From the NCBI GenBank assembly GCA_008632985.1, contig QPGO01000001.1, positions 302,600-366,599 of the forward strand: a DNA stretch of 64,000 nucleotides, read 5' to 3'. This DNA is from Psammoneis japonica. Lineage: Eukaryota. Position 1 is the stretch's first letter. Every line of letters starts with the position of its first letter. A model generated the notes under the pieces. The model made no database searches and was not told where the DNA came from. It was given only the letters and a program-made list of their open reading frames with translations. Below are positions 4,832-42,829 of the stretch, piece by piece. A program made the translations under genes and the position numbers.

Positions 4832-7137
4832 TTCAACAATGTAAGAACGTGGTGGAAATACAGCGCACAAGTGATGCACTTGACCGTCATAAAAGAAGCT
4901 GCAGTCAGACATAACCAGAGAATGAGTAGGCATCATACCTCAGTGTTTGTCATACTTTTAGATAACGCATAACTTAATGTGATGGTAAAACCAAGAATCG
5001 GCATGAATCTGCGCGCTGTTCTGACCTCCGGGATCTATGTGAGCATGCGGCAATCCTTGTCCTTTTGATTGGTGCAGCCGATGCCTTTGTCTGGAAATCG
5101 TTTTGTGCAGACGACATTTTTTGTGGAAGTTCTTGGCCTCGTGCTGGTGTTCCTTGCAGATTTCGCATGCGGATTTGCAGTCGTGGTGCTTAACGGGATT
5201 ATTTTCTCTTTCCAGCTTCCATGCTGCTTCAAAAAATCACCCTCTTCTGCAACACATGCAGCTCTCTCTGCGGTGGCAGTCTTGGCTTGGGAATGGCCGC
5301 AATCCTTCTCTGGGCTTAGTTGGAAAACAGACAACTTGTCAATGGAGCTGCAGCATGAATTGAAGGCATCTTGTGCAGTGTCATGCACCAGCTGATGCTG
5401 CGGGGGTGACCACACCAACCAGGTTTTGAGTGTGCTGGTGAGCATGATCTTCCAACTCTCTCATTTTGGGTGAGTCCTTGCCATCTAGAAACTCAGCATG
5501 AGTGCCCAAATGTGATGCCTCTGAATGGCCTTGAGTTCCTGGAACCATTCTTCCAATGTGTGGTGTTTTTGGTGCAGGTCACAACCACGTGAGCTTTGTG
5601 TGTCCCTCCTTGAGCAAGTGTTCCCCTCCTCACAGAGGAGGTCATCATCTGGGTGTGCAACTGCCATCAACACAGAATGCTTTTTGATGCCCTTGGCAGT
5701 CAGGAGTGCGTTTTGCCTTTGATTTTGTCATTCATCTTTTTTGCTTTTGTTGTCATGAATGATGGCCTTAAATTTGATGCAATCTGTGCAGAGACAAGAG
5801 CAAAGCCTCACTTTCAACTCATTTGCCACCACTTGTTTCTTTTTAGAGATCATCATGTTGCTTTTCATCTCATTCACCTTGTCACCCCCAGTGTTGTTCA
5901 TGGCCAAACAGTTGACACTGTTCACTGCAAAGCTGAGAGCACCGCTTGCTGACCACATTTTTCTTGAATCTTGTCAGCTCCAGTGCAACCTGCACTGAGT
6001 GCTGTGGGTGGTGGCTTGCTTGCCACATGGCCCCATCATCACAGTGAGCAAACATGTGGTTGCTTTTGAGTGAGGGAAAAAAGCAGCCAATCATGCGTGT
6101 GGCACAGAGGAACTTGATGGACAGACTTCTTGGGCCAGTTGTTTGCCTGGTCTGGAAGCTTTGGCAAATCTTCATGATTTGGGTGGCTGTTGATCATGGT
6201 GTGCTGGGAACAAGGCACGGCACCTCACAGAGAGTTGTGACAATGTGGTCTGTGTGGCAACTTTGTGCAAAATGATCTTGCTCACTTTGGCTCTCACTGT
6301 TTTTAGCTTGCTGCCATCTCCCATTTTCTTTCAGACCAACGGATTCCCAAAATGTTTTGTTCATGTGCCAAGAGTCACCTCACATTGGCTTTGGGATTTC
6401 TCACTTGCATGGTGCAAATGTCTCTGCCAACAACTCCAAAAATGCTCCAGCCACTCCACAGAACAAAACTTGGAAAATGCAAGAAACTGATGCTTTGGGA
6501 ACCTTGGCTTCACTGTTGCTGCCAGCAATCCCCTTCTTGGAGACTTCATTGGTGAAAAGGAAGTTTTCAACTGCTGGACAGCCAAGAAATCCAAGGCTCC
6601 TGCACCTTGACCATCCGGGAATGGAGGCCGTGGAGAGATGTTGCTTCTTGCTTGAGGCTGGTGGGAAAAACAACAGAGCTCTGTCGCTGACATTAAAGCC
6701 GCTGATGTTGGCAGATGCCCCATCACACCAACCATCCAAGAAGGCACCAAAACAGGTCCTGTTGAGTCCCAAAAGGAGAAAAAGTGGAAGCATCTCAAGC
6801 CATGCCTTCAGCAGCATTGTCATCATTTCATGCCAGCAGCAGTGTTTTTGCATGATGGAGGACCAGCTGGCAAAGAAGAGGCCCAAGCATCCCCAAGGCT
6901 GATTGCAGCATGACTTTTCTGCAAACTGCAAAAACCTCATTTGGGAGCGCCGCGCACAAGCTCGTCAATGCAAGGATGGAAGCTGCAGCTGTGAGGACAG
7001 CTCACCTTGGCCTCAGAGGCCCCCACTGTCTCTCTGTCAGCATCAACCCAAGATGTGATGACTGATTGCACATGTGGGGATGCATTGCTGTCACCTGGTG
7101 GCAAGGTGCCATCTGCACACCAAGTGTTCAATCATGT

Positions 7138-7414
7138 CAACAGGATTTGAACAGGATTTAGGTGCGCGCGACATGTCGCGCGCTGTCCAGTTTGCCGCGC
7201 ACAGTTTTGTGTGCTTCAGTTCCGCGCGTTCGCGCACGGTGCAGTTTGCTTTCGAGCCACAAGGCTCACAAGAACAATGACAGTAGCCCGATTGTGCCGA
7301 CTTTGCACGTCTTTCGGCTCCTGCAACTGTCTCTGAGCGGAGACTCATCTGCCATTTAGACAGCAGCAAGGAGTTGTTGTTTGAATTCTTGCCATTTGCC
7401 TTCAATTTCTGTCA
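7138..7414 (+). repeat. 5' LTR (about 277 bp)
   Basis: 7138-7321 aligns with 13956-14124; ends CTGTCA, the inverted repeat of the 3' LTR start TGACAG. Confidence 0.8.
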
Positions 7415-7432
7415 GATTAACAGTCTTGCTCA
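7415..7432 (+). promoter_or_regulatory. Putative primer-binding site
   Basis: GATTAACAGTCTTGCTCA abuts the inferred LTR end; reverse complement contains CTGTTAA, a tRNA-Asn(GUU) anticodon loop. Confidence 0.45.
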
Positions 7433-8336
7433 TTGTCAACCCATTGAGCAACCGCCATCGTCGTCGTTGATTTACCGACGATGACACTTCAATTCTGCAT
7501 GGATCTCCGCATGTGTTCTATGCACATCGGCAAGTCTGCGCGCATTCAATGCCAGGCATCGGCAGGAAGTTAACGTCACCGTCAAATCTCCTCACCGCTG
7601 GACATCTGGATTGATTGTGCTGCCTCTTGTCGCTGAAGACATGCATTCAACGGTCACATCCAAGTCTGTCCTTGATCCTCATCCCTTGACATGCCCATTC
7701 AACGGTCAACGGTCAAGAACCCTGCACATTCAAGGATCTTCGTCGCTGAAGACACACACACATCCACATCTTCACGGCCAAGAACTTGCACCCACTCTTT
7801 GGACTGCGGCTTTGCTGCCACTCTACAAGCACACCGAGTCCATTGCACCTGATCCACCCCAGACTGCTGGTGCTCTGCAGTTCCACTGGGTCCACGAGGA
7901 CGACTGTGAGAGCAAGCAGCCGTGATTGCAGCCTACGTTGGGGCGAGGGTGTTTTTTCCCGCGTTTGTTCGTTCGTCCACAGCGCCTGACGCCTGCATCA
8001 ACTGGCCAGCCTGATCGGGAAATCCAACCGACATAAAACAAGAACGGTTTGGGGGTCTTGTCCACCTCCAGTCAGCTCACCTGCAGGGGTTTGCAACCCG
8101 CTGCTGCGCTCGCAAGCAACCCAAAGCGCCACTGGCTGCGGGTTCAGACCTGCCGGCACAACTCTGCGGACCGGATGGGAAGTTTAGCACTTGACAACAA
8201 ACGGGACAGCACAGCCCGGCAACTTCTGATTTTAAGGCAGTTCAAGATTTCAAGTCAAGTCCATTCTCACCCAAGTTTCAAGTCTGCCTTCGCGTCCCAA
8301 CAAGAGTCGCTTGTCCTGACACCACTTTTGTCTGCC

Positions 8337-11300
8337 ATGGTTCTCACTCGTCAGCAACAAACCGATGGTTTCGAGCACGTTGTTGGAACCGTGCTTGCCC
8401 AAGGTGCTGGGAGCCCTCTTCGTTTGGCTTTGACCCATGACGGCACGGACTTGCATCAAGAACTGTTCACGTTCACACCGTCCCAAATCGACTCGCTTGA
8501 GTGCGACAACGGCACTGATGTGATCCCTTTGCCCCACGGTTGTAAGAACATGTTAGCAGCTCTAGTTGGTCTGCACATTGTCAAAGCACATGAAGGTCTT
8601 GACGTTGCCAATGACTCCTCGTTGTTCACGCATGAGGAGTTCCTTGCCCGCCGCCTCAGCCCCGACTGCATGTCTTCTGTGTCCGTCGGCAGCTTGCCCC
8701 TCGCACCTCTGCATGTCACCAACCCGACCAAGGCACGCGACCCGGTGTTGGACTTCAAGCAAGGCATCAAGCGTGACCCCACCACTTTCACGGCTCTCAA
8801 ATCCGACAAGCAGTGGCACACTTGGCACACCTCACTTGTGGCACAAGCCCGTGCCCAAGACGTCAAGTGCATTCTAGACTCGTCGTACAAACCGACCAGC
8901 CCCGAAGACAAACTGCTCTTTGCTGAACAGCAAAAGCACAAGTTCGCTGTCTTTGAATGCATCCTTCTCACCGACAAGGGCAAGGCTCTCATTCGCGAAA
9001 ATGTGGGGTCTTCTGACGCCCAGACCGTCTGCCGCGCCTTGTCCGAGCATGCGCTCGCCTCCACCCGCGCTTCCATCGAGTCCTCCACCTTGCTCATGCA
9101 CCTTGCCACCGCACGTCTTGGTGATGGCACTTAAAAAGGTCCGACCCACGGGTTCATCCTTCATTGGCAAGATCAGCTGCGCAAGCATGGGGCACTCATC
9201 CCGGCCAGTGACCACTTCTCTGAAGGGCAGAAGCGTGTCATGCTCGAGAATGCCGCACATCCTGTCGAGGAACTCCGTGCCGTCAAGAACCAAGCTGATC
9301 AGCATCGCACGCAGAGTGGCAAGAGCCTCACATGCGATCAACATTGTGGCTTGCTCCTCTCCGCGGCGGCTCAATGCGACAGCATGTTTCAACCCAAGAC
9401 GACACCTCGAGCTCCCCGACGTGCCACACACGCACACGACGTCTGCTCCGAGGAACCATCCGATGATGTGTTCCATGACATCGACAGCGACATTGACGTC
9501 CTTCAGGCCAACGCTGCCTGCACCCGTGGTCCCAGCCTCACCGGTGACCAGTGGAAACGTCTCCCTCCCGACCACCAACAGATTTGGGATTCGTTGCCCC
9601 ATTCCTCCAAGGCAATCATCCTTGAGCATTCTCGTCCGCCTCCCCGCCACCCGCGAGCCAGCAACTGCCATGAGTCCGTTGCGGTCAACCTTCATGACCA
9701 ACGACTTGGGAGTGACGGTGATGTCAACTTGTCCAACACGACTCCTGCTGACTCTGGTGACCCTGCTCCAAATGTGGATGCCACTTCAGATGATCCCATT
9801 CTGGCACACCTCACCAAGCGCAAGCCACCACCACCCGGTGATCTGCAACGCCTGTTGTCTCCTAACCAACCCCCCAATGCTGGTCGACCGGGCCCATCCG
9901 CCGCTCCCTCTACCTCGCCTGCTCCTGCAGATGACACAGAACTTGGCGGCCGCACTCACCGCCGCGTTGACAACCACAATGTCATTTGCTCTGCCTCCGC
10001 TCATCGCTCCACACGCACTGGTGCTCTGGTCAATCGTGGAGCCAATGGCGGCATTGCTGGCGACGACGTTCACGTCATTGCATGCACCTCTTGCCAAGTC
10101 GACGTTCAGGGCATTGACGACCATCAATTGGTGGACATCCCCATTGTCGCCACTGGTGCCGTCATTGAGACACAGCGTGGTCCCATCATCGCCATCCTCC
10201 ATCAGTGCGCATGCACGGGAAAGGGCAAGACCATTCATTCCTGCGGCCAGCTCGAATGGCACAAACATGATGTCAACGATCGCTCTGTCAAGGTGCCCAA
10301 CGGCTTGCAACGTGTCGCCACCCCTGATGGCTGTGTCATCCCAATTGACATCAAGGGCGGCCTGCCTCATGTTGCCATGCGTCCCTGCACTGACGCCGAA
10401 TGGGACACCCTGCCCCATGTCATCCTTGCCAGTGATGACACATGGGATCCTTCCATCCTTGATCACTCTGTCACTGATGATGACCAGCGGTGCGACGCGA
10501 TCTCTGACCTGCAGGACGATCCCACTGCCAACCCATTTGATGAATGCGGCAACTGCCGTCACCGTGTCGTTGTCAACAAGGCCATCATGTCCGCCTCCTT
10601 GTCTGCCGATCACGCATCCATCCTCGATGACCACCTCATTCCGCATGACGACGTGTTCTGCGAGTGTCATCTGCATGCGATTGACCCCAAGGACGACGAC
10701 GTTCCGCCCCCGGAGTGCACTGTGCAGCCCAAGGACCCCCCCTGCGAGTCTCTTCGGCCTTGCTTTGGTTTCCAACCTGCCGATGCGGTTCGTCGTACTT
10801 TCGACTGCACCGCGCAGTGCGCCCGCATGCCCGCTGGTGCACACCTTCAGAAGGCCTGCAAATCGCCCAACCCCGCCCTCAATGTGCACCGCCGCAACGA
10901 GCCCATCGCCACTGACACCATTTGTGCCGACACCCCGGCCATCGACTCTGGTTGCACCAGCGCCCAACTGTTTGTTGGCACCGAGTCTACTGTCACTGAC
11001 GTCTGCGGCACCAAAACGGACAAAGAGTTTGTCAACACACTCGAGGATCAGATCCGTGAGCGTGGTGCTCCATCCAAACTCATCAGCGACCATGCTCAAG
11101 TTGAGATCAGCAACAAGGTGCTTGGGATCCTACGAGCCCTCTTCATCTCCCCAGCTGGCAAAGTGAGCCTCACCAGCAACACCAAAACTTTGCCGAACAT
11201 CGATGCCAGACCGTGAAGTGCGTGGCGAACACTGTCATGGATCGTTTTGGTTCGCCTGCCCACACATGGCTGCTGGCACTCATGCACATGTGCTTCATGC

Positions 11301-14059
11301 TCAACCATGCAGCGTCCCCACGTCTCCACTGGCGCACGCCCCTCGAGACTCTCACTGGCTCCACCCCGGACATCAGCCCATTGCTTCGCTTTCACTGGTG
11401 GGAACCCGTGCACTTCCACCTTGATGACTCCGATTGGCCGTCCGAATCCCGTGAGTTGCGTGGACGCTTTGTTGGCATTGCTGAGCACGTCGGCCACCAG
11501 ATGACCTTCAAGATTCTCTCTGACGAGACTCAGAAGATCCTCTGCCGGTCCAACGTACGATCCGCTGCCACCGATCCTGCAGTTCGAAACCTGCGTCTTG
11601 ATCCTCCTGATGGGGAGCCACCTGAACCCATCATCAAATCTCACCATGACGACAACCCCGTCGATTCACCCGATGGGGAGATCAGGACACCCAAGATGCC
11701 AGTTTTCGATCCGCAAGACATCATCGGATGCACCTTCCTCATGCAGCCACAAGAGGACGGACAACGCCACAGAGCTCGCATCGTCAAGGCCATTGAAGAC
11801 CACAAATGGAAAGTGAGCAGCAATCCCGAGCTCACCAAGTTCGTCTGCTCTGTCAACAACGACGAATGCGAGGAAGTCCTGGCCTGCAACGACATCATGA
11901 ATCACATTGAACAAGAAGACGAAGACACTGCTGTTTGGAAATTTCGACGCATTGTGTCACACGAAGGACCTCTGAAGCCTCATGACCCAACCTGGAAAGG
12001 CTCAAGCTGCGACATTGTGCTTGAATGGGAAAGTGGGGAGATCACGTCCGAGCCTCTTGCCATCATCGCCAAGGACGACCCTGTCACCTGCGCCATCCAT
12101 GCACGAGAGAACGGACTTCTTGACACTGATGGCTGGAAGCGGTTCTGCACCATCGCGAGGCGCCAGAAGAAGCCATTCCGCATGGCCAACCAAGCCAAGC
12201 TTTGCTCCTTCCGCACTGCACCTTGCTGCAAGTGCGGATGCGAAGTTCCCCGGAACTGCAAACATGCCATGTCACTAGACGAACGCAACGGCAACCGCAA
12301 ATGGGGAGACGCAACTAATCTCGAGATGGACCAACTCAAGGAATGCGAAGTCTTCCATGACTGCGGGCCCTCCGAGTCTTCCACTCCTCCTGCGGGACAC
12401 AAGAAGATCCAAGTGCACCCAGCGTACGACGTGAAACACGATGGTTGCCACAAGGCACGACTTGCAGCCGATGGGCACCTCACGGACGTACCCATTGACA
12501 GTGTCTGCTCCGGAGCAGTCTCCCTCCGTGGCCTTCGGCTGATGATTTTCCTGGCCGAACTCAACGAGTTGGAGACATGGGCCACCGACATTGGCAATGC
12601 CTGCCTTGAAGCCACCACCAAGGAGAAGCTCTACATTGCAGCCGGACCCGAATTTGGCAAACTCGAAGGCCACATCCTTGTCATCCACAAGGCCCTGTGT
12701 GGACTGCGCAGCTCCGGCCTCCGCTGGCACGAGCGCTTCGCCGACTGCCTGCGAGCTGAAGGTTTCTTCCCCTGCCGCGCCGAACCCGACATTTGGATGC
12801 GCAGGAACGGCGACCACTACGAATGCATTGCCGTTTGTGTGGATGACCTTGCCATTGCCATGAAGGACCCTCAATCTTTCGTCGACACTCTCACGGAAAA
12901 GCACAAGTTCAAGCTCAAGGGTGTGGGACCGATTGAGTTCCATCTGGGCTGCGACTTTTCCCGGGATCCTGACGGCACCTTGTGCCTGTCTCCGTGCAAG
13001 TACATTGAATGCATGGTCGACAGCCACACACGACTTTTTGGGGAGAAACCCACCACCAACGCCCTGTCACCTCTGGAGAAGGGTGACCACCCCGAACTGG
13101 ACACTTCCGAACTGCTGGGGCCCAATGGCATTCAACAGTTCCAGTCTCTTGTTGGTTCACTCCAATGGGCAGTGTCCCTTGGTCGACTTGACATCACTGC
13201 GGCCGTCATGTCACTCTCTAGCTTCCGAGCTGCACCCCGTCAAGGCCACTTGGATCGTGCCAAACGCGTCTGTGGGTGCCTCTCCAAGATGCGACACGGC
13301 ACTCTCCGCGTTCGCACGGAAGAGCCCGACTGTTCGGATCTCCCTGCTCCGGCCTGTGAATGGATGCATTCCATGTGTGGCGAAGCAGAAGAGATGATCC
13401 CGAAGGACGCTCCACCGCCCCTTGGCAAGTTCGTCACTGCCACCCACTGCGTCGATGCAAACTTGTGCCATTGCATGCTCACCGGACGCTCTGTCATGGG
13501 AATGCTCCACTTCCTCAACAAATTCCTGGCTGATTGGCTCTCTAAGAAGCAAGCCACCATGGAGACTGTGACCTGCGGGTCTGAATTTGTTGCCGCAAGG
13601 ACTTGTGTCGAGCAGATTGTCGACCTGCACATCACCCTGCGCTGCCTCGGCGTCCCGATCCGTGACATTGGTTGCATGTTCGGTGACAACAAGTCAGTTG
13701 TAGACAGTGCCACCATCCCGCACTCCAAGTTACACAAGCGACACACCGCACTGTTGTTCCACCGTGTGCGCGAGGCTGTTGCCTCTGGTTGCCTTGAGCT
13801 CCACTTCATCGAAGGCTCCCGCAACCCTGCTGACATTCTCAGCAAGCATTGGGGTTGCTCCCAAGTCTGGGACCTTCTCCGCCCCCTCATGTTCTGGAAC
13901 TTCATTCCATCTAAAGTCGAGTCTGTTTCTGTGACTCCTCAAGCAAACTGGGGAGTGACAGGATTTGAGCAGGATTCAGGTGCGCGCTGTTTAGTTCACC
14001 GCGCACAGTTTTGTGTGCTTTGGTTCTGTGCGTTCGCGCGCGATGTAGTTTGCTTTTGA
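8337..14059 (+). pseudogene. Copia gag-pol polyprotein pseudogene
   Basis: ATG 8337; stop 9132-9134 within DGT*KG; protease LVNRGANG (D->N); integrase TDT...SDHA; frameshift near 11150; RT KARL..DG, DIGNACL, KALCGL, CVDD (12836-12847); RNase H DNKS, NPADILSK. Confidence 0.95.
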
Positions 14060-14124
14060 GCCACAAGGCTCACAAGAATGACAACAGTGGCCCGATTGTG
14101 CCGACTTGCACGTCTTTCGGCTCC
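13956..14124 (+). repeat. 3' LTR, truncated
   Basis: Starts TGACAG after the PPT; similarity to the 5' LTR stops at CGGCTCC (14124). Confidence 0.85.
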
Positions 14125-14708
14125 GGCTTTGCGGCACATGCATGACTTCTTGAAACTCTGCTGCCAGCACTCATGTTGAGCAGTTCATTTTGCCAGAGAC
14201 ACAGGCAAAAAACAACAAGATGCCAACAAGGCATTCCTCACATCTTCAACTCTTCGTCTCAGCGTGCCTCTTGTCTTCCAGTGTTAGCTACAGCACTTCA
14301 GGTTATGACGCCGATTCTTGGACTTGGACGACAGGACGGGAAAAGTTTCGATTTTGCGAAAAAATTGCGGTTGCGATGTGACGGCTTTCAAAAAAAATAT
14401 ACATTAAACCCATGCGTAAATCTTATAATGTACGGCAACGCCTAGCTCTAACACTATCACTCATACAGTTAACAAAGTCGTGCAGGAATCACATGTATGA
14501 GGAAGTTCATATACTCTCTAGATTTATATAAGCATGGATTACGGAAGACTAACGCCGCAAACGCCAATTCGAAATTTTGAAAGAATCAAGCGAGCAAAGC
14601 AAGCCATCACTTTTCACCTGCTCGTTTCACCTTTTATTAGAGTACCGCACAGTTGGTGGACATCAAATTGACGTACGGGCCTCTGTTAAATGGTGGAAAA
14701 ACGGCATT

Positions 14709-16494: not shown

Positions 16495-16829
16495 GACGAT
16501 GATGGAAAAATGAAGCGTTGTTGTTAACACACCATTTCTTCGAACTTTTTGCTTGATGTGTTACCTGTAGATAGCAGAGAGATGCGAGCACCGACACTGT
16601 ACTGTAGAAGAGGATTTCCATCGCATCGATCATCACATCGGCCGCCCGTCAAATAAGCCCGCCAAAAACCCAGTCGCACTGTCCGATCTTCGCCAGGCAT
16701 CCGTGGTGAGACGCAGTGAATCGGCGCCGACATGCGACGACGCGAAGGCTTACGACGTAAGACTGCACCCCAATGTGAAAAACAGGGAGAGATCACATTC
16801 AATTACGCGCATGCCAACGTTTTAAACCG

Positions 16830-19800
16830 AGCAATCCACAAGTCAGCAGTCATTGCAAGAGCCTCCTCTGCGCAGCGCGCTTGGCAAATGCTGTGTGGCT
16901 CATTTTCAAATGGCTGTTCTTTTGTGCAGTGGTGCCACTGCAATTCACTCTCAAACTGCTGACAATGCAGTTGCTGCTCATGTGCTTCTTTCAACTTCTG
17001 GACTGTTGACAACTCCAGATTGCAGATCTTGGTGCAGTTTGCCATGTGGTCTCCCTCGTCATCCATTTCATTGAGTTCTTTTCTGGACATTTCCGCTGTT
17101 TGTGCTGCGGTTGTCCTGCACAAATCTTCCCATTGGTTGAGTCATTCACTCACTGCATCTTGCTTGATCACTGTCCCACTGCCACACTGCGCTGCAGTCA
17201 GGAGGCAGACTGTGTGCCTGCTGACACTTTGAGAACCAAGAATCAAGCCCTCAACCTGTGGGGCACAATGTGGTCTTGTGGTGGCCAAGAAGATGATGGC
17301 AGAATGGGGCCATTGTGTGCTCTTCATTCATGAATTTTCTTGTTGCACCTCACAGCCAGCGCAGGCTGCCACCCCCTCTGATCCCCCTGACAGGGGGAAG
17401 CTGTGTGGGGTCTGTGCACACTTCCCGTGCAAAAAGATTGTGCACTTCACGTGTGCAGACAGGTTGTGCATGCTTCATGCTCGCTTGCAAAGCAATTTCA
17501 AAACTGGTTTGTTGCTTGACAAATGCAGTTGCTTTGTGGTTTGCTGACAAACTGCATTTTGTAAAACACTCAGTCAGAAAATGTTTGCAAAGAGCTGCAC
17601 ATGCTGCATTGGGTCACCTCACCACCAGCCATTCTGAGCATGCAACCCATCTCATTTCATTTTCATCTGCAGGGGTTGCAAGCACATCTTCTGCTGCACC
17701 TCTGGAAGTTCTGGAAGCAAGCCACCCATCAGCGTTGGTCCACAATTCTGGACAAAGTCTTTTCACAACATGCCTGTTTCCTCCAAAAACTGTTGGCATC
17801 AAATGTGGGTGTGGTGTGGTGCTCAGAAACACTTTTGTCTTTGACATGGTCTCTCACCTTGATGATGTCTCTGCCAGCAGCCTTTTTGTCATTGGCCACC
17901 CACTTGCCCAGATTGATCTGCCTCTGAACCTTTGCCCACCTGCACACACTGTGGGGCTGCTTTGTGGCATTGCAAGTTGCTTGGCCTCCCCTTTGTGTTG
18001 TCTTGTGATCTGAACACAGTGGTTTTTCCTTCATCATTGACTGAAATTTTTGACAAGCAAATTGGATTAAAAAACAACCCCAAGTTTTAAAAATGTTTTG
18101 GTTGTTGATGACCATGGTTGCACACAACAGAAATGCAAACATTTCTTTTTTCTGGCAGCCTTGAAAGCCCTCTGTTTGTCCTGTTGCAAACCACATGGTT
18201 TTGGAATTGCTGCCCTTCTTCACTCACTGAACAAACCAATTTTCAAATCAATCAGCACACTGCACAGCCAACAAATTGTCGCTGACTTGCATCATGATTT
18301 GTGCCTCAATTTTGTCTGCAATGCATGATGAAGAGTTGCCATTGCCATGGCTGGCACAACAGAATCCAGTGTGTTGATGCAACTCAAAATGAGCTGGGCA
18401 TGTTGTTGTCCCAATCCACTGATGCTTCTGCACCACCAATGGGCTGATGACTGATGCACATCATCAGCAACCAGTCAGTTGAGCACAGCAGCCACCTCCC
18501 AGGTGCTGCAGGTGCCAGCCACCCCCCTTCTGGCTCTGCTGCTTGCACCTCAGGTGACACCATCATTGCATCTGGCACCAGACTCCCCATGTTGGGTGGC
18601 AGCAGTGGCATCTCAGGTGCCTCTCCTGGTGGACCAAGCCTTGTGACATGTTGGGCAAGCCAAGTGCATTTGCTGACACTGACACACACAGAGGAAATGG
18701 GGGCCCAGGAAACCAACAAGACTGATGAAAATGACGGATCTCTCTCAAGAGAGGACAACAACAAAGGTTTTGTTTTGAAGTGTTTCTTGGGATCAACTCA
18801 TCCCAGCAGATGTTGGGTTCTGATGATGAAGAGGGTTTGGCAGCACCAGAGCTTTCTGCTCCAAAGGAGCGTGCCGCCACATCATCATCATTGGGCTGCA
18901 TGTTTGCATCTGGAGGGAAAAGCATCTCTTGAGCTGATCACAATCTGTGGCAAGTCCAGTGCTGCTCACAACACAAGGTGCAAAGAGACCAGTGACAAGC
19001 AAAGCAAGCAAACACACACCACATTTTTTCACTTTTTGAACTTTTCTTTCATGACTGGTCATCTTGTCTTTCCAGCATCTTCAAACTCATCAAACAGATG
19101 ACTGGCATCCTCATCATCTGCCAAAAGAGTTGTCATCTGCCAAAAGAGGGGGTCACCACAAGATGGCAATTTTTGTGCTTTCCCTGCACTGCACTGCAGT
19201 CCATCAGAAGAACTGGGCCTCTTCAGGATTGCTGGAAGTGGGGTCTGACACTTCTTCCTCTGTGATGCTGTTCTTGAACTGAGAAAGGGAGTTTTTGAGA
19301 CTTGCAAGAAAAGCACCCCACCCATCCACCATTGATCATGTGCCTCCATTCCTCACCTGTGGCTTGTCAGTGTGCAAAAGCTCCTCTTCATCGTTCCATT
19401 GGCAACACACCAGAAATGCCTTCAATGGGTTTGAAGCTTTGTCTTTTTCAGGCTGCAGACATGAAAGTGGGGTGATTTTGGACACATCTTTGTGACAGAA
19501 GCAAAATGCCACAAGGTGGCACGCAATCTCACCCTGTTGACATCAGACCTTGCCAATTTGAGGGGGTGAAATTCGTGCAGGAATTTTTTGCAGGGTGGAC
19601 AAAAAATTGCAGTGCAAGTCACTTCACGCAGATGACCAAGTGGGTTTGTGGCTGCCTCTCTCTCTGGGCATTGCTCTGACAACTGCTGAACATGTTAACA
19701 TCCAATGCAAAAATGCCAAACGCAAAAATGTCAAGTGAAATTTTTGAAACACCCCCAAATGGAAATGTCAGTGGCAAAAATCAAGTGCAGATCTTTTGTT

Positions 19801-22355
19801 CAGATGTGAGCAAAACAACAAAGGAGTGACAGTTGCTGCAGCTGCTGCACTTGTGTCAAGATCTGAAAGAAGACAAAATGATTTGGTCACATGGGACAAT
19901 GGTCGCATGCAGACCAAAGAAAAAAATGAGTGCCACAAATGAAAAGGGGCACTCATGAGAGGTCAAAGTGCCAAACAACAACCTGTGGCTGATGCAGCCC
20001 CCTTTCTTGTGTCTCTGACATGCAGTGGTTCTCACCACCACATCCTCTGCATGAGCAAAAGCTCCAAGAATCTGCTGAGCATGTTGCAGCAGCAAGCAAC
20101 AACTTGAGCCAGCTTGCGCACTGAGCACATGGCATCTGCCATGATGAGAGAAACTTTCTGCACCCTCACCCCAGTGAAGTCAGGGCTTTCATGACACTGT
20201 CTCAGAGCACAAAATCAACCCCTCAAACCAGCTCATCATGAGAGTTGTCTCAGTGTCCATCATCTTTTCAATGCACCACTGCACAATGTGACTGCCACAA
20301 AGCAACAACAACAACAGGAGCACTTTGTGTTGTGCAAGTTCACAAAAGCTGTCTTCTGCACAGCTTTCTCTTGCTGCTTGCACCAAACAGTGCTCCAGCG
20401 GGTGTTCACATCTCTTGTTTTGCTTCATTTCTTCTTGCAGTGTGTCAACATGAGTTTTGAGGCTGGAGGCCTCTTTTGGTGCCAAGAACTGATTGAGCTT
20501 TGCCCTGAGACAGTTGTGAAATCCCCTTTGGCAAGTTGCAAACAAGACAATTGCCAAGTCCACCTGATGCTCTTTTCACAGACTTGCAGCCATGCATCAT
20601 TGATGACTGCACAAACATGCCACAGGGCCCAGGGAGGGTGTGTGCCCCACTGCCTGTTAGAGCAGCAACAGACAAGAAGAAGTCAGCAGCAGATGGTGCA
20701 TGAGCCTCCCTGCAAACTGGCAACATCGGTGGCTGCAGTGTGTGCTTGGAACTCCTCTGCATCAATCACCACAAGGGCAGCATTGACAACTCTCCTTTCT
20801 CAAAGGGGGCTTGGCTGGCACCAGATTTGAGGTGCAAAAAACAGTTGTTCCCAGAAAATGCAGGGAGAATGCCAGCGTTGTCCCGTCGTTGGAACATCAA
20901 GGCCAGAGGCAGTTTTTGCAGGACAGACAGACAAAGTTGCAGTGTGAGACATGCTGACAACTGTGGACAATGTGGCAACTTGTCTGCATTTGCAACTCAG
21001 ATTGAGTTGCAGGTCTTGTGCTTGCTTTTTAGATTTTGCATCTGGTGCACATGGCAACAACAGCCAGCGGCAACAGTTGTGTGTTTGCAAGCCAATTGGT
21101 GAGTTTGGAGATGCAGTGAGACTAAATGGGTGCTGGTCAGCAAGCTGCAAAGCTCCAACCCAGAAGCCAAAAAGTCACAGCACAATGCCCAAAGGAGTGG
21201 CATCATTCAAGGGTTGGGAAGTTGAGAGAAATCCACAGAGAAGAGCTGGGAAGTCAAGAGGAATCTGCAGATGAGGGCTGGAAAGTTGATGGGAATCCAA
21301 AGGAAAAAGGCCAGGATGTCAACAGGAATCCAAAGGTGCACATTGTGTTGGTGAATTGCAGCAAATGAGCCAAACAACATCTCTAGAGGGCTGTGAAGGG
21401 TCTGCTGAAACAGGGTGTGACAAGGTTGTGTGTGTCAGGATCAGCGAGACAGAGTGTGTGGCTGTTGACAAGCCATGGAACTCCGGTGCAAGTCCCAGAA
21501 AAGATGGGCAAGGACACAGCTGAGTGCAGAGAAGCACAAATGAATCAAAACAGTGGGTGCACAATTCCATTGCCTGGCTGGGATGACATGCAGATGGGCA
21601 CATGGAAACCATGAGGAAGATCATTGGCAAGCATGTGTCAGAAGAACAATGTTTGGGCTGGAGATGCAGGCACCAGTGTCTCTGAGGCAGGGTGAGAGAA
21701 TGCCAGGAGAGAGCCAGATCATCCCTTGTGGGAGGACACCATGTCAGAGAAGGACAAGGCAATCTGGGGCAAGAAATGTGATCACCATGTAAAACAGAGT
21801 GTGTGACTGCAACAAGATGCAGAAGGCAAAAGGCATTTGACACAATTGCGGGGCAATGCACAAAAGACCACTCATCACAAGCTTGAAACAGTGGGACATG
21901 GCAGCACTGCTGGATGCACTCAAGTTGATTTTGTTCAGTGCAACTGAGATGACAAACCCGTGTGTCCAGATGGTCAGGGCTTGGCAGCATCAGCTGGTGC
22001 TCATTCACCAAGACAAAGGAGAAGTGCTTCACAAAAGATTCTTGTGGTTGGCTCACAAGCATCCATGGTTGAAATGGTGGAAACATCCCATGGCAGGATC
22101 ATCCAGGAAGAAATTGCCAAGAAGAAGATGGGTTCAGCAAGGATGCTGATGATGCCTGGAGCAAAGAAAGGAGGAACAAGTCATTGGCAGCAACGCCAAG
22201 AATGGAAGGTGCCAAGGGCTGCTGTTGGCATGTCTTGAAAGACCTGCATTGGCGGTTCACATTGCGGGGGTTGACATTTGTCCCAATTCAGCTGAGGAGG
22301 CACTGCAGGTGTTGGACACCCACGGGACCAACAAGAAACCTGAGGGGGCATGAGT
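16830..22355. other. TpA- and CpG-depleted block B (degenerate, unidentifiable sequence)
   Basis: No TpA found by eye in 20041-20650; CpG rare; no credible ORF. Confidence 0.85.
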
Positions 22356-22675
22356 TATGGAATGACAGGAAGAAGATTGCACGCTAGAGAAGTGTGACAG
22401 GTTGGACATCGCAATCTGAAATCGACCAAATTCAAATCCTGCAATTGCAATCTACATCCACGTAGAAAACCTATGACCAATGCCGCTGCAAAAGCAATGC
22501 CTGCTTCGCGGTTGATGGTCCACAATAATCTTGTCACAATTTTCTTTTTTCTTTTTTCTCTTTTCTCGATCTCCGAACTACCGTACGTATCACACAAAGA
22601 TAGAGCAGTTTGAGTTGCTGCCGTTTCCTTCTCTCGTCAGACCGGCACCCTCTAACGTACTCCAAAGGACTTCCC

Positions 22676-32519: not shown

Positions 32520-32990
32520 GGTTGCATGACGTGTAGCTTGCGTTTCATGGCAGAACAGATCACGTTGGAGGATAAAGCACATGCACCACAGTTTGCTTTT
32601 TGCCAACAGGCATTTGATGGCGAAGAGAAGCGTCAAAAAAGAATGCAAGGATAGCATTAATGAACAAAATCTAAAGCAGTGTACATTAAGTTCCACGCAA
32701 AGATGGTCCCTGCTGTTGCACGCAGTGCACATCTCGTGACGCCTTTTTGTCATTGGTTTCTAGCCACAGGCGAAGGGCTCCATGGCAATCTTGACTTTTG
32801 GCTTTGAGCAATGGCATCAGGAACATCATCTGGTGGGCTCTGAATGTTGGTTCTGCCAAAGTGATTGACACTCTCAAGAACAACAATCAATTCATTTGGT
32901 TTCCTCCATTGGCTGTTGCTCAAGGCACACACATCTTCCCTGATTTGGCTTCATGACCCAAGCCTCTCTCTGGCAATGGATGCCCCAGTC
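32520..32990 (-). pseudogene. Decayed copy of the hydrolase-like region at about 38490-38950
   Basis: ELIVVLESVNHFGRTNIQSPPDDVPDA vs ELILLDGVNHFGITSIQNPPGAIPDA; DNA similarity extends into the 3' flank. Confidence 0.8.
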
Positions 32991-33759
32991 ATGCAGGTGC
33001 CTCTTGCTGGCAGGCATCTTGCTCACAGGTCAGCAGGATGATCTCTGGATCAAAAGCACTGGACGTGCAAATTGCTGCAAGAACTTGAGGGCAGTGCAGT
33101 GCACTGGCTGAGCTGCAGCCAAAGTGAGAGCTGCCATGCTCTCTGGCATGCCACTGGCACTGCACTCAATCCTGCAAACATGAGGGCAGCACAGGGTGAG
33201 AGCTGGGAGAGATCTGTTGTCAGTTTGCACCATCCCTGCAGCAGGAAATTGTTGTGCCACACATGCTTCTTTGGTTGGCACACCATCCAACAAAAACTCT
33301 GTGTTGTCTTCTTTCCCCACAGAACAGCGCTGTGACATCAAAGGGCCAGGAAAGGGCATTCTGCCCCATGTGCAAGAGAAGTGCAAAGAAAAGCATTTGT
33401 TGCACATGCAGTTCTGCACAGTGTGACCCACCTGCACACCACCATTTTTTTTTCGCAGCACAAACAGATGCACCACACCCTGCACTGTTGCCAAAACCCC
33501 ATTGGCAATTCCTGCAATGATGCAACTCAGCCAACACATGGCTCTTGCACCACACAGCTTTGATGCAGAGCAGCACAACTTCATCGGCACTTGCCAGAAA
33601 ATCACATTGCAAAAAGCAGAGCAGGGCACAACATTGCTGCACCCACCACCAAAAAAAGCAGGTGTGTCATTCTCTTTGCCAATGGCATTGTGGACCAACA
33701 TTGGAGATGCATGCCTTGGCCTGCTGTGGCAGCAGCGGAGCACAGAAGAAGACAGCAAA

Positions 33760-34035
33760 ATGACAACCACATGGGAGCAGCTCTGGTCAATTCAGAGCAG
33801 CCTGCAGATTCCTTTGGCAATCTTGTCAATCATTCTTGGATTGGCAATGACCACTGCAGTTGTTCTTCAAGAACAGAGGAAAAGCCAGAAGCAAACACTC
33901 ATGTGCCATGCTGGGTCTTGCATTTTGGTTGTCTGAGTCAGCTCCTTGGGGCATGGCACTTGGGCTTGGGGAGCTGCCTTTCATGTGGAATGATTTGGAC
34001 ACATGTGCACAGCTCAGGACTTTCTCTTTGTCTTG
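33760..34035 (+). pseudogene. Decayed 5' fragment of the GPCR-like gene at 36744
   Basis: MTTTWEQL..LQIPLAILSII vs MPPTLEQL..LQIPSAILSIV; DNA alignable with an internal deletion. Confidence 0.85.
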
Positions 34036-36743
34036 TTTGAAAGAACAAAAAAGAAAAGCACTGGCCATGTGTCCACCACCAAAAGCCAGCTCTGTTCTCC
34101 ATGCCAATGTGGCCCTCCTCATTTTCACTCCCACTGGCCATCCACACTCTTGCACTTGAGCCTCAGTTGGCTGGTGCACTCCATGAAAGACATGATGCCA
34201 TGCTGTGCCACATGTTTGTTGTGAAGAACTTGAAAAAATCACACCACATGGAACAAATGTGGCAGAGCTTAAAAACTCACCATGCTGCAACATTCTGGAA
34301 ATGATGTTGATTGCTTGGGGAGCACAGCAGCTGGTCAACTGTTGCACCACCACCATGCAAAGCTTGAACAAACCACACCATGTTGCATGAAAAAGATGTG
34401 GCACGGTCTGTGTGCCACATTGCAGCACAACACAGCCAGGGTGAGAAAAGGACTGCAGAACTCTGAAAACAATGGGTCAATTGTTGTCACTGCACACAGC
34501 TGGCCAGGAGTTGCACTGCCACATGTCACAGCCAAAGACTTGCATTTTTCAGGTCAAGAAAACAAGACAGCATGATGACAGTGAGTTGACTGGGCTTGAT
34601 GTGGGGGGTCAAAAAATCATGCAAGTGCAGCAAAGCTCAAAGTGGACAGCAACCAGAGTTCACAGCAGATGTTGAAACACTGCCAGCAGGAGACACAGCA
34701 GAGCTCATTTCACAACATGGCAGTTGGGCAGAAGAGAAATCACACAGCACATGGGGGGGGGGGCAGTGCTCTGACTCCATCTTGATCAATGGTCAGCACA
34801 GGAAGCCACCAAAGAGCTCCAACATGCATCCACTCTACAAAGAGGTCTTGCATTTTTTCAAACTCTGGTGGAGTGGCAGATGCAGTTGGTGAGCTTGAAA
34901 CAGCACCAATTTTTTGCCAATGACAGCAACTGTGTTGGCAACAACAGATTGACTTGGCTGCCGGCGCCTCTTGCCTTGTTGTTTGATGTTGACCTTCTTC
35001 CTCAAGAATCTTTTGTGACTGCCTTGCATGTTTCTCCAAATGTTTCTTCAGCTGTTGCTGAAACAGGGGGCCTCTCTGTTTGACTCTCTTAGACCACACA
35101 CTTTGATCTTCAAGATTGTAGAACAAGGTGATGGGTCAGTCATCCAGGAAGATGTTGCTGCCATGTTGGGAAGATGCTTGCAAGAACAGAGGGAGGGCCC
35201 TCGTCTTGCCAAGCCAAAGCTTGTGGAATTTTGCTGATTGCTTGTTTTGCTCTTTGCCTCATGGAGTCTGTGAATGGGCACTTCCTCTTGGGGTGCACTT
35301 GTGCGCCCCCCTGCCTGCATCAGCCAGACTTTGAGTTTTCCAGCAAAGCAGGTGCGGATTTTCAGCATCATCATCACATCTCCAACACCTTGTCACAACC
35401 CAGTTGGGACATGGTGAATGCCATTTTTTACAATCTCCATGATTTTGGAGCATTTGCAGGGGTGTGCACTTGGTTGCTGCCTCTCAGGAGTCTGCAGAAG
35501 GCTGGAGACAGATTTTTAGTCACACACACAGATTTTTGCGCTTTTGAAACAAAGTGCAGAAGAGTTTCACAAGTGTGGTTGCTGGTCAAGACATGCAGAT
35601 GCTCCACTTGATGCCAAGCACAGAGGTGACTGGGTGACCCTGATCTGCTTTTTCATTTGAAAAGAGCGGGGGGTGCTGCTGCGAGACAGCAGCCACGACA
35701 ACAAAGCTTCACACTGGCAGGAGACAACAAAAGGAGGAGGCTTGGCATTCTGTGAGTCATTGCATGGCTGAAGCTGAGCTGATGGCAATTTACACTGGTC
35801 AAGATGAGCACCCCACTTGGGGTTGAGCTCATCTTCTTAACTTGTCAGAAGCTCGTCTTTCTTGCTGGGCCTCGACACCCCCCATGACGACTGTGTGCCA
35901 ACACCCAAGTCCAGCTCATGAAGGAGGCCAAGAAGTTTACACAGCAAAGTGTTCACACTTTTGCAAGTTATTTTGGCCAGGTGCCACTGGGTGCTGCACT
36001 TTTGTGGTGTGCAACCTGCTGCCAGTGTTGCGGGGTGGGGTGCAGTGCAGCGATGTGTGGTGCTGCAGACAGTGGCTGGTCATTTTTGCTCTCTCTGTGT
36101 TCATGGGCTTCACAATGCCCAGTTTTCAGAGCACCAAAAATGTTCTAAAGATGACAAATGATGACCCAAACCCACCACGTGTGGGCAAACTCCCGTTCAA
36201 ACCGGTGGGGGGCAACTCGAAAAGTTTTGCTCTAGCTGGCTGGAGGCAAACTGTTCGTTCGTGCGTTCAACAACAATGAGACAGTCTGTGCGCGCGCCCA
36301 CAGCAGCGAGCTGCTGCAGTTTTGCGCTGATACGTTGCCAGCGGTACAGTTTCTACGCAATGCCGGTTCCATTAAAGGATGTTGAAGTTATCATACAACT
36401 TCTCCGGCGATTGACGGAACTTTTCAAACCTTGCTGACACGCACGCACAACAACGGACACCACAATAAATACTGTGGCCTACCGTATGTAGGACCATACC
36501 GTAGCGCGACACTGTCGATCTCACAATTCTGCACAGTACGATGTGGTCGTGAAAGTTTGGGGAAATAACAACTCCAGTTCTGGTCGAAATAAGCATCGGA
36601 TGGTTGACACCATCGCATTGTGCTTCCATATTGTTGGATCACAAACTATCTACTTGGTTCTCGAACCGGGAAAACGCCTTAGGGACGCATACCTTCAAAC
36701 CTCCTGTGGTGGGTGAGCATTGAAAAATAATAAAGGCAACAGA

Positions 36744-42542: not shown

Positions 42543-42829
42543 ACTCACTGCCTATCTATTTCGGATATTCTGTATCCTTGACAGCATCGGCAGGAATGCG
42601 GCTGTAGAAAGCTTTTACCCATTTCAGCACTTTAGCTTTAATTTCGGATCAGCACACTTATTCTCAGCAACCAATTGAGGTTTTTACTTTTATGTTATCA
42701 TTTTGTATCTTTCGTATTGGCAAGTGGCATAGATCTTCTCCGCTTTGCTGTTGCTTAAGAGCTACAGCCGCTGCAATAGCTCGATAGCTTAGGAAACACA
42801 AAGCTAACGACATTCTGGAACCTGCGTTT

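What the first reader, a model, noticed from the sequence alone, without database searches (positions are those of the whole stretch)
7138..14124. LTR pair records post-insertion, two-strand TpA mutation
LTRs are normally identical at integration. In my by-eye alignment (7138-7321 vs 13956-14124) all substitutions are transitions. Several sites keep TA in one copy and CA or TG in the other (tttagg/ttcagg, gtgcag/atgtag, agtagc/agtggc). Five sites show reciprocal CA vs TG, for example gaaCAaTGacag vs gaaTGaCAacag, consistent with ancestral gaaTAaTA. Inference: each copy was mutated independently on either DNA strand after insertion. This argues against RNA editing or RT error, which would be strand-biased and shared by both LTRs. 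Reciprocal sites alone could also derive from CpG.
Basis: partly seen in the sequence, partly recalled or inferred. Interest (0 to 1): 0.85.

Follow-up and report, generated by a model that had tools for sequence, protein, structure and literature searches.

The report
TpA-destroying hypermutation of a diatom retrotransposon
A dead copia-type retrotransposon in a diatom genome, like much of the DNA around it, has had almost every TA dinucleotide rewritten to CA or TG on either strand, a DNA-level hypermutation so far reported only in a 2026 preprint on an unrelated alga.

Summary
There are 5 reciprocal CA/TG sites, 4 TA-versus-CA/TG sites and no shared TA.

- At 25 Tyr columns conserved in 40 homologues, this copy keeps 2; 15 became Cys and 5 His. 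33 of 39 Arg columns are kept.
- Other genomic copies read TA at 12 listed places where the window has CA or TG.
- A TA-ancestor model fits the LTR counts; a CG-ancestor model is rejected.

The element's TA observed/expected is 0.11, against 0.33-1.00 in 79 related elements from metagenomes.

The signature is regional. About 28 of the 64 kb lies in sharply bounded patches almost free of TA; outside the element these also lack CG.

Host genes are diatom-like.

The same TpA->TpG/CpA hypermutation was measured in Bigelowiella natans (bioRxiv 10.64898/2026.01.13.699255). Six literature searches found nothing for diatoms. I file it as a new member of a recently described kind; the enzyme is unknown.

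The parts
7133..7137 (+). Left copy of the probable 5-bp target-site duplication (CATGT).
   Evidence: it matches 14137-14141 (CATGC) apart from one transition, when the LTR ends are set at 7138 and 14136.
7138..7325 (+). 5' LTR. The alignable core is 7138-7321. It starts CA where the 3' LTR and other copies start TG.
   Evidence: Loose ends of other copies at 7140 read a purine run followed by TG (table 7).
7326..8912 (+). Internal 5' region with no recognisable domain. It belongs to the repeat family.
   Evidence: summed depth is as high as in the rest of the element; the ORFs here have no Pfam family.
8913..11147 (+). N-terminal half of the polyprotein (frame 3), homologous to residues 1-763 of relatives.
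   Evidence: tblastn with 6 homologues gives 37-51% identity and no stop.
11147..11156 (+). Frame change between the two halves of the polyprotein. Most other copies lack 2 nt here.
   Evidence: frame 3 changes to frame 2. table 4: 'left out 2' at 11149 in 10 contigs of X1, depth 31,154 of 41,115.
11156..13900 (+). C-terminal half of the polyprotein (frame 2) with a copia-type reverse transcriptase. RVT_2 covers residues 429-639 of ORF 11105-14059, about nt 12389-13021. The family's YVDD reads CVDD here.
   Evidence: RVT_2, E = 7e-21.; the family alignment has YVDD.
13950..13955 (+). Purine run (GGGGAG) directly before the 3' LTR, a polypurine-tract candidate.
   Evidence: The same run precedes TG in loose ends of other copies (table 7).
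13956..14136 (+). 3' LTR (TG...CA). The alignable core is 13956-14124.
14137..14141 (+). Right copy of the probable target-site duplication (CATGC).
5001..7132 (.). Older TA- and CG-depleted patch into which the element inserted. It seems to continue for about 150 nt after the element (14142-14285, TA-free).
   Evidence: TA o/e 0.03-0.11, CG 0.18-0.31, CA/TG 1.6-1.9; sharp left border near 5000-5040; first TA after the element is at about 14286.
16701..22400 (.). TA- and CG-depleted patch.
   Evidence: TA o/e 0.04 (15 TA), CG 0.16, CA 1.84, TG 1.84.
32701..36300 (.). TA- and CG-depleted patch.
   Evidence: TA 0.06, CG 0.15, CA 1.93, TG 1.78.
42801..45300 (.). TA- and CG-depleted patch.
   Evidence: TA 0.05, CG 0.21.
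48201..52800 (.). TA-depleted patch. It contains a ~488-bp tandem repeat (51340-52763) with the same substitution pattern as the LTR pair.
   Evidence: TA 0.08, CG 0.36; 45 ts, 3 tv, 9 reciprocal CA/TG sites.
57601..59700 (.). TA-depleted patch.
   Evidence: TA 0.07, CG 0.49.

Best explanation
A Ty1/copia-type LTR retrotransposon lies in a diatom nuclear genome and belongs to a family of roughly a thousand copy-equivalents. After integration its DNA was hit by a hypermutation that converts TpA to TpG or CpA. This is one chemical event (A->G, or equivalently T->C) on one or the other strand of the palindromic dinucleotide.

Shown:
- The process is close to saturating. About 86% of TA sites are changed per LTR copy.
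- It is site-independent and has no strand preference over distance.
- It is confined to sharply bounded regions: the element and other repeat-like or intergenic patches, about 44% of this window. Neighbouring genes keep normal TA.
- A slower CpG->TpG/CpA decay acts in the same regions. The young element has lost TA but kept most CG; older patches have lost both.

Inferred: the most likely chemistry is adenine deamination in DNA by an ADAT2/TadA-like deaminase with a 5'-T requirement and a 3'-pyrimidine preference, recruited to silenced or foreign chromatin. I give this about 0.45. Thymine oxidation to 5hmU at TpA followed by mispairing is the main alternative, at about 0.25.

The effect is to kill the element: catalytic and conserved Tyr residues become Cys or His. 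No TAA or TAG stops are created, so long stop-free frames persist.
For: Direction of change:
- of 25 Tyr columns conserved in >=80% of 40 homologues, the window keeps 2 and has Cys at 15, His at 5, Phe at 2 and Trp at 1. Arg is kept in 33 of 39 columns.
- an independent set of 79 metagenome loci gives 15 Tyr columns. The window has C at 10, H at 2, F at 1 and Y at 2. 69 of the 79 loci show no Y->C/H change.
- Tyr 0.41% vs 4.05% in homologues; Cys 4.97% vs 1.14%.
- of 69 changed conserved columns, 28 are TA-type, 14 CG-type, 4 other transitions and 23 other.
- at 12 of the 40 listed places, other genomic copies read TA (14-92% of depth) where the window has CA or TG.

After integration, at the DNA level, on both strands:
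- the LTRs disagree at 5 reciprocal CA/TG sites.
- model fit gives logL -15.66 (TA ancestor) vs -28.19 (CG ancestor). The per-copy mutated fraction is 0.86 for TA and 0.13 for CG.
- a 5-bp target duplication is present apart from one transition.
- a tandem repeat that is not a retroelement shows the same pattern.
- CA and TG outcomes are about equal and unclustered in patches (runs-test z between -1.3 and +0.3 in the six other patches; +2.35 in the element).

A host effect, not a family trait:
- TA o/e is 0.11 here vs 0.33-1.00 in 79 relatives.
- 1 of 770 1-kb windows in relatives has TA o/e below 0.25, against 50 of 127 in this window.
- the 15 LTR or terminal-repeat pairs of relatives have 0 reciprocal sites and 3-275 shared TA.

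Regional confinement.

Context: surviving TA in patches has a 5' A in 14 of 236 strand readings, against 832 of 2884 outside (chi2 = 93). Tyr (TAY) became Cys 15 times and His 5 times (p = 0.04).

Precedent: bioRxiv 10.64898/2026.01.13.699255 (I read the abstract, Results and Discussion). Mutation-accumulation lines of B. natans gained 231 mutations in two integrated viral regions. All but one were A->G or T->C, and these all fell on TpA. The genome also has TpA-poor, CpA+TpG-rich clusters.
Against: - The five reciprocal LTR sites themselves were not polarised with other LTR copies. No genome is held, and only 40 of 623 variable places were shown.
- At three listed dinucleotides the window is the reciprocal of the majority of other copies (9829-30, 11204-5, 7521-2). 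So some CA/TG differences reflect subfamily history, not only changes in this insertion.
- Four listed private changes are T->C or A->G outside TpA (7187, 7239, 13865, 13921). TpA specificity is therefore not absolute.
- The LTR ends differ by indels, and the 5' LTR starts CA rather than TG. The target duplication is 4 of 5 plus a transition, not exact.
- CpG-type changes also occurred, so the signature is less pure than in B. natans.
- Nothing here shows the enzyme, the trigger or ongoing activity.
- The sequencing runs come from one sample, which may be the source of the assembly.
- The other patches have no recognisable transposon genes: 0 of 46 ORFs. That they are 'foreign or repeat' DNA is inferred.
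Confidence: 0.85

Rival explanations
1. The reciprocal CA/TG sites come from ancestral CpG. The transposon is CpG-methylated, and 5-methylcytosine deaminated on the top strand in one LTR and on the bottom strand in the other. TA plays no special role.
For: - CpG-type changes are real here: CG/TG 3 and CG/CA 1 in the LTR pair.
- 14 of 69 changed conserved codons are CG-type.
- 7 of the 40 listed places have CG in other copies where the window has TG or CA.
- Older patches have CG o/e of 0.05-0.5.
- From recall: methylation of diatom transposons at CpG is known.
Against: - 12 CpG are intact in both LTRs while no TA is. The CG-ancestor model is rejected (G = 11.05, P = 0.0009) and is 12.5 log units worse.
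- Arg columns are kept in 33 of 39 cases, while Tyr is kept in 2 of 25.
- CpG decay cannot remove TA: TA o/e is 0.11 with CG o/e 0.83.
- Other copies read TA at 12 listed places.
Confidence: 0.05
2. The changes arose before integration, through A-to-I editing of the element's RNA or mutation of the cDNA during reverse transcription (ADAR- or APOBEC-like restriction). The two LTRs differ because they come from different insertions joined by recombination, or from unrepaired heteroduplex.
For: - Copies of the family differ overwhelmingly by transitions: in X1, 537 transition places against 79 transversion places.
- Sites where both LTRs share CA or TG (10 each) could have been mutated before insertion.
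- The target duplication is imperfect.
Against: - Outcomes fall equally on both strands. Sense-RNA editing would give only TA->TG.
- A non-retroelement tandem repeat and patches with no reverse-transcriptase homology carry the same signature.
- The flanks fit one insertion.
- In B. natans the same signature arises de novo in single-copy integrated DNA (preprint, Results).
Confidence: 0.07
3. No hypermutation occurred. The element and the patches are TA-poor because of selection or compositional adaptation, for example avoidance of stop codons, of unstable UA in RNA, or of a TA-cutting nuclease.
For: - Gene regions of the window are also moderately TA-poor (o/e 0.4-0.75).
- Frames without TAA or TAG stay open.
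Against: - The changes destroy conserved residues, including YVDD->CVDD. The copy also carries a frame change that most other copies lack.
- Relatives are not TA-poor.
- The two LTRs of one insertion diverged at these sites.
Confidence: 0.02
4. A fungal-type RIP-like process (C->T at CpA in repeats) runs in the opposite direction to the reader's idea, so that TA is the derived state.
For: - The changes are transitions only and are confined to repeats.
- There are TA-versus-CA/TG sites.
Against: - RIP enriches TA, whereas here TA is almost absent.
- Polarisation shows TA to be ancestral.
- Reciprocal CA/TG sites cannot arise from single C->T changes.
Confidence: 0.01

Closest known systems
TpA-specific hypermutation of integrated viral DNA in Bigelowiella natans (Mettrop et al., bioRxiv 10.64898/2026.01.13.699255; abstract, Results and Discussion read; supplements closed)
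   Same: - TpA->TpG and TpA->CpA, meaning A/T->G/C on either strand.
- Action at the DNA level on integrated sequence.
- Regional confinement.
- Genomic clusters that are TpA-poor and CpA+TpG-rich.
- Reverse-transcriptase domains enriched among TpA-poor coding sequences.
   Different: - The host is a diatom (stramenopile), not a chlorarachniophyte (rhizarian).
- The target here is a high-copy LTR retrotransposon and other non-genic patches, not a giant-virus or virophage insert.
- The loss is near-saturating: TA o/e 0.04-0.11, against 0.45 for the B. natans viral region.
- CpG loss accompanies it in the same regions.
- Here it is inferred from comparison of sequences, not measured in mutation-accumulation lines.
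Repeat-induced point mutation (RIP) of ascomycete fungi
   Same: - Transition-only hypermutation that inactivates transposons.
- It leaves sharply bounded regions of odd dinucleotide content.
   Different: - The direction and chemistry are opposite. RIP is C->T, mainly at CpA, and makes TA-rich, AT-rich DNA (recalled). Here TA is destroyed and GC rises: the element is 56% GC against 46-47% in the flanks.
- No dependence on duplication is shown. A 96-97% identical 90-bp tandem array inside an ORF keeps its TA.
Decay of methylated CpG in transposons
   Same: - It produces TG and CA on either strand.
- It is present in this element and strong in the older patches.
   Different: It cannot remove TA. 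It is about seven-fold less complete than the TA loss in the LTR pair (0.13 vs 0.86 per copy).
APOBEC (G->A) or ADAR (A->G) hypermutation of retroviruses and retrotransposons
   Same: - Deaminase-type, transition-only restriction of retroelements.
- ADAR and tRNA adenosine deaminases prefer a 5' U (recalled; also stated in the preprint's Discussion).
   Different: Those act on RNA or on cDNA before integration and are strand-biased. Here both strands are hit equally, the LTRs differ from each other, and sequences that are not retroelements are affected.

Membership tests
Ty1/copia LTR retrotransposon | Copia-type reverse transcriptase (Pfam RVT_2). | tested here: met
   PF07727, E = 7.4e-21, 75 bits against a cut-off of 31.6.
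Ty1/copia LTR retrotransposon | Two direct long terminal repeats flanking the coding region. | tested here: met
   a ~170-185-nt pair, about 6.8 kb apart, 81-87% identical.
Ty1/copia LTR retrotransposon | TG...CA LTR termini and a 5-bp target-site duplication. | tested here: inconclusive
   The 3' LTR reads TG...CA (13956, 14136), but the 5' LTR starts CA. The flanks read CATGT and CATGC, 4 of 5 plus a transition. The LTR ends differ by indels.
Ty1/copia LTR retrotransposon | Polypurine tract before the 3' LTR and a tRNA primer-binding site after the 5' LTR. | tested here: inconclusive
   A purine run, GGGGAG, lies at 13950-13955. The primer-binding site was not identified. There is no tRNA gene in the window and no genome is held.
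Ty1/copia LTR retrotransposon | Integrase upstream of reverse transcriptase. | tested here: inconclusive
   8913-11147 is homologous to the N-terminal ~760 residues of relatives' polyproteins. Pfam finds no integrase family, either here or in relative P0001, even at E <= 1.
TpA-specific DNA hypermutation (B. natans type) | Changes are TpA->TpG/CpA, with TA ancestral. | tested here: met
   polarisation; model. CpG-type changes and a few other transitions occur as well.
TpA-specific DNA hypermutation (B. natans type) | Both DNA strands are affected. | tested here: met
   reciprocal sites. CA and TG are about equal and unclustered. Y->C 15 and Y->H 5.
TpA-specific DNA hypermutation (B. natans type) | Confined to particular regions, leaving TpA-poor, CpA+TpG-rich clusters. 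| tested here: met
   seven low-TA stretches totalling 28.3 of 64 kb. Six of them are 2.1-9.4 kb long and one is 400 bp. Borders are sharp.
TpA-specific DNA hypermutation (B. natans type) | Arises de novo in the genome at a very high rate, as measured across generations. | not testable with these tools
   This needs mutation-accumulation or pedigree sequencing. The only support here is the divergence between the two LTRs.
Fungal RIP | C->T at CpA (or CpG) in duplicated DNA, giving TA enrichment and AT-rich regions. | tested here: not met
   TA o/e is 0.04-0.16 and GC is raised. The direction of change is TA->CA/TG.
Pre-integration editing of retroelements (ADAR/APOBEC type) | Strand-biased changes that are shared by both LTRs. 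| tested here: not met
   the LTRs are discordant and both strands are hit; a repeat that is not a retroelement is also affected.

The most novel reading that the evidence does not exclude
Diatoms have an 'inverse RIP': a chromatin-targeted DNA adenine deaminase (or thymine modifier) that erases TpA on both strands of transposons and other silenced DNA. It works alongside CpG methylation and has rewritten a large share of the genome. Because the same signature exists in a rhizarian alga, it could be an ancient genome-defence system shared across the SAR supergroup rather than a single-species oddity.
Probability: 0.35. Interest if true: 0.9.

Novelty: new member of a known kind. Interest (0 to 1): 0.72.

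Why it matters
Editing-based genome defence is established for C->T: RIP in fungi and APOBEC in animals. A DNA-level process that specifically destroys TpA was first reported in a 2026 preprint on one chlorarachniophyte.

Finding the same signature at near saturation in a diatom has four consequences.
- It suggests a widespread and unrecognised mutational force in ecologically dominant algae.
- It explains extreme local dinucleotide bias, raised GC in transposons and stop-free 'ORFs' in diatom assemblies.
- It warns that LTR-divergence dating and gene prediction will be misleading in such regions.
- It gives a natural lead to a TA-context adenine-editing activity on double-stranded genomic DNA.

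The LTR pair, the Tyr->Cys/His readout and the patch map make the hypothesis directly testable in a culturable group.

Tried and rejected
- **Whole-genome collection of LTR copies:** no genome is held.
- **Sequencing runs:** four runs of one sample and study hold the stretch, and no RNA holder is listed. Laying their contigs gave 13,255 pieces for X1, but the variant table shows only 40 of 623 places. None of the five reciprocal LTR sites is among them, so these sites stay unpolarised by copies.
- **First protein alignment:** the alignment of 70 homologues timed out. I repeated it with the first 40 of the 120 listed.
- **Transposon identity of the other patches:** 0 of 46 ORFs of >=110 aa have a transposon Pfam family; one weak, unrelated hit. 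tblastn with 6 copia polyproteins hits only the element.
- **Integrase by Pfam:** none found at E <= 1, even in a relative.
- **tRNA for a primer-binding site:** none in the window.
- **Strand-processive action (RIP-like runs of one outcome):** rejected, because CA/TG order shows no clustering.
- **Earlier notes of this scan:** three look-ups returned nothing.
- **Literature:** searches for diatom or transposon TpA hypermutation found only the B. natans preprint. Its supplements are closed, so its per-site tables and context data were not seen.
- **B. natans as the source organism:** rejected. Host-gene hits are all diatoms at about 50-64% identity, and long ORFs run uninterrupted.
Full report
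**1. What is there**

Positions 7138-14136 hold a Ty1/copia-type LTR retrotransposon.
- Its only Pfam family is RVT_2 (E = 7e-21).
- tblastn with six related polyproteins covers 8913-11147 in frame 3 and 11156-13900 in frame 2, without stops.
- The two halves are separated by a frame change near 11149. Most other copies of the family lack 2 nt there (table 4).
- Relatives found in the protein database reach at most 65% identity. The best named one is from the diatom Nitzschia.
- A host gene in the window, an EngB-like GTPase ORF at 1943-2794 on the minus strand, has only diatoms among its named best hits, at about 50-64% identity. The host is therefore a diatom without a close sequenced relative in that database.

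**2.

The LTRs align over about 170-185 nt.
The one transversion lies just outside.
- By dinucleotide class: TA/TA 0, TA/CA 3, TA/TG 1, CA/TG 5, CG/CG 12, CG/TG 3, CG/CA 1.
- A pair of genic paralogues in the same window shows 146 ts and 121 tv, so 21 of 22 is not the local norm (p = 4e-5).
- Random placement of 21 transitions gives 0.46 reciprocal sites on average. It never gave 5 in 100,000 trials.

**3. Which state is ancestral**

No genome is held. The read-laying table shows only 40 of 623 variable places, none at the reciprocal LTR sites. Three other lines of evidence answer it.

(a) Protein-family polarisation.
- In ORF 11105-14059, Tyr is 0.41% against 4.05% in the first 60 homologues. 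Cys is 4.97% vs 1.14%, His 5.08% vs 3.63% and Arg 5.99% vs 6.17%.
- Of 484 columns conserved in >=80% of 40 homologues, 25 are Tyr. The window keeps 2 and has Cys at 15, His at 5, Phe at 2 and Trp at 1. Of 39 Arg columns it keeps 33.
- The family's YVDD motif reads CVDD here.
- A second set, 79 metagenome loci, gives 15 Tyr columns in the RT region. The window has C at 10, H at 2, F at 1 and Y at 2. 69 of the 79 loci have no Y->C/H change and the maximum is 4 of 15.
- At codon level, 28 of 69 changed conserved columns are undone by restoring TA at a CA or TG, and 14 by restoring CG. Four are other transitions and 23 are other changes.

(b) Other genomic copies.
- Contigs of four runs of one sample lie on the element in huge numbers: 13,255 pieces in X1.
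- Summed depth is 47,000-112,000 per interior bin, against 59-64 for the unique flanks. This suggests about a thousand copy-equivalents, though the tool warns that summed depth is not a copy number.
- Among the 40 places shown, 12 are places where the window has CA or TG and 14-92% of the other depth reads TA.
- Seven more are CpG-type, six are three reciprocal dinucleotides, five are transversions and ten are other transitions.

(c) Internal counts.
- If reciprocal sites descend from TA, both classes fit a simple model of independent hits per copy: TA p = 0.86 and CG p = 0.13.
- If they descend from CG, the CG class is rejected (G = 11.05, P = 0.0009). The total log-likelihood is -28.19 against -15.66.
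- The 488-bp tandem repeat at 51340-52763 gives the same verdict, -37.56 against -25.04.

**4. A host effect, not a family trait**

- TA observed/expected is 0.11 in the element (38 TA in 6,987 nt). It is 0.33-1.00 in the 79 related loci.
- Element GC (0.56) exceeds that of all 79 loci (0.37-0.55).
- One of 770 1-kb windows in those loci has TA o/e below 0.25, against 50 of 127 in this window.
- The 15 LTR or terminal-repeat pairs found in those loci have no reciprocal CA/TG site and keep 3-275 shared TA. A 16th pair, in L010, is a 65% match between different elements and was set aside.

**5. One insertion or two**

- With the LTR starting at 7138 (TG in the 3' copy and in loose ends of other copies) and ending at the CA at 14136, the flanks read CATGT and CATGC. 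For fixed ends, a match this good has a chance of about 0.6%.
- I take the LTRs as one insertion. The match is imperfect, though, and the LTR tails differ by indels.
- Even if the element were recombinant, the conclusion about TA would stand. Only 'post-insertion' would weaken.

**6. The wider picture**

The window is bimodal.
- Stretches at 5001-14400, 16701-22400, 32701-36300, 42801-45300, 48201-52800 and 57601-59700, together with a 400-bp stretch at 39801-40200, total 28.3 kb. There, TA o/e is 0.04-0.10 in the long stretches and CA and TG reach 1.5-1.9.
- Outside the element these long stretches also have CG o/e of 0.15-0.49.
- Gene-bearing DNA has TA o/e of 0.4-0.75 and CG about 1.
- Borders are sharp.
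- The element has lost TA but keeps CG at o/e 0.68-0.88. TA loss is therefore faster than CpG decay, and the older patches have suffered both.
- The patches carry no recognisable transposon genes: 0 of 46 ORFs.

**7. How it behaves**

- CA and TG outcomes are about equal and show no runs (z = -1.3 to +0.3 in the six other patches). Strand choice is therefore independent at each site, unlike strand-processive editing.
- Surviving TA in patches rarely has a 5' A: 14 of 236 strand readings, against 832 of 2884 outside (chi2 = 93). ATA, which reads TAT on the other strand, is thus lost most efficiently, while YTA (TAR on the other strand) lingers.
- This agrees with Tyr (TAY) turning to Cys three times as often as to His (15 vs 5, p = 0.04). 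If the target is A, it sits in 5'-T-A-Y.
- Three private A->G changes lie in A-T contexts without a 5' T (7239, 13865, 13921), as does one T->C at 7187. Specificity is strong but not absolute.

**8. Mechanism**

*Shown:*
- The direction is TA->TG/CA and both strands are hit.
- The loss is near-saturating and regionally confined.
- CpG decay co-occurs in the same regions.
- The changes are lethal to the element.

*Inferred:*
- It acts on integrated DNA. This rests on LTR discordance, the tandem repeat and the precedent.
- It is targeted to silenced or foreign chromatin.
- The chemistry: I favour adenine deamination in DNA by an ADAT2/TadA-type enzyme (about 0.45). The natural substrate of this enzyme family is an A preceded by U (recalled; also argued in the preprint).
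- The main alternative is thymine hydroxylation at TpA, with mispairing or faulty repair (about 0.25). 5hmU at TpA in dinoflagellates is recalled, not tested.
- The sequence cannot tell the two apart, because TpA is palindromic.

**9. Comparison with what is known**

- The closest match is the preprint on Bigelowiella natans (bioRxiv 10.64898/2026.01.13.699255). I read the abstract, Results and Discussion; its supplements are closed.
- There, 231 of 302 new mutations in 15 mutation-accumulation lines fell in two integrated viral regions. All but one were A->G or T->C, and these all fell on TpA. The genome has 124 TpA-poor, CpA+TpG-rich clusters, and an ADAT2 homologue is proposed as the enzyme.
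- The present case shares the signature but differs in several ways. The host is from another lineage, the target is a high-copy retrotransposon plus non-genic patches, the loss is much deeper, and CpG loss is added.
- It is the reverse of fungal RIP in chemistry and outcome.
- It is not pre-integration ADAR/APOBEC editing.
- Six full-text searches found no report for diatoms.

**10. Verdict**

It is a new member of a kind described very recently. Interest is high but not maximal, because the phenomenon is in print for another alga and because the enzyme, the trigger and current activity are untested here.

Noticed in passing
window 5001-7132, 16701-22400, 32701-36300, 42801-45300, 48201-52800, 57601-59700: Sharply bounded patches in which both TA (o/e 0.04-0.08 per patch; 0.03-0.11 in the first) and CG (0.15-0.49) are almost gone and CA/TG reach ~1.7-1.9. 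They have no recognisable transposon genes (0 of 46 ORFs). Because TAA and TAG are absent, they hold many long spurious ORFs on both strands.
   Followed up: partly
window 51340-52763: A ~488-bp tandem repeat (about 2.9 units). Its units differ by 45 transitions and 3 transversions, including 9 reciprocal CA/TG sites. This is the same pattern as the LTR pair, in a sequence that is not a retroelement.
   Followed up: yes
L055 (metagenome contig, 2,561 nt), match 254-1945: One of the 79 related elements shows a partial version of the signature. TA o/e is 0.33, and 4 of 15 conserved Tyr columns read Cys or His with 0 of 23 Arg columns changed. This hints that another environmental diatom has the same process.
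   Followed up: partly
window 3618-4829 and 15268-16489: A 77%-identical paralogous pair (ORFs 3317-4510 and 14553-16142, no Pfam family) brackets the element and its patch. Its substitution spectrum is ordinary (146 ts, 121 tv) and it keeps 25 shared TA.
   Followed up: partly
window 14840-15289: A 90-bp tandem array (4 units, the first three 96-97% identical) lies inside ORF 14553-16142, right next to the element. It keeps its TA (6 shared), so near-identical short repeats in a gene are not targeted.
   Followed up: partly
window 40024-42492 and 45597-47864: Two paralogous FG-GAP-repeat ORFs (822 and 755 aa, about 65% identical at the DNA level over 800 nt) are separated by a TA-depleted patch.
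   Followed up: no
window 7326-8912: About 1.6 kb lies between the 5' LTR and the start of polyprotein homology. It has no known domain, yet it is as repeated in the genome as the rest of the element. It could be an untranslated leader or a lineage-specific ORF.
   Followed up: no
window 7239, 13865, 13921 and 7187: Private A->G changes (T->C at 7187) lie outside TpA, where all or nearly all other copies read A (or T). The three A->G changes sit in an A-T context. They may be off-target events of the same process.
   Followed up: no
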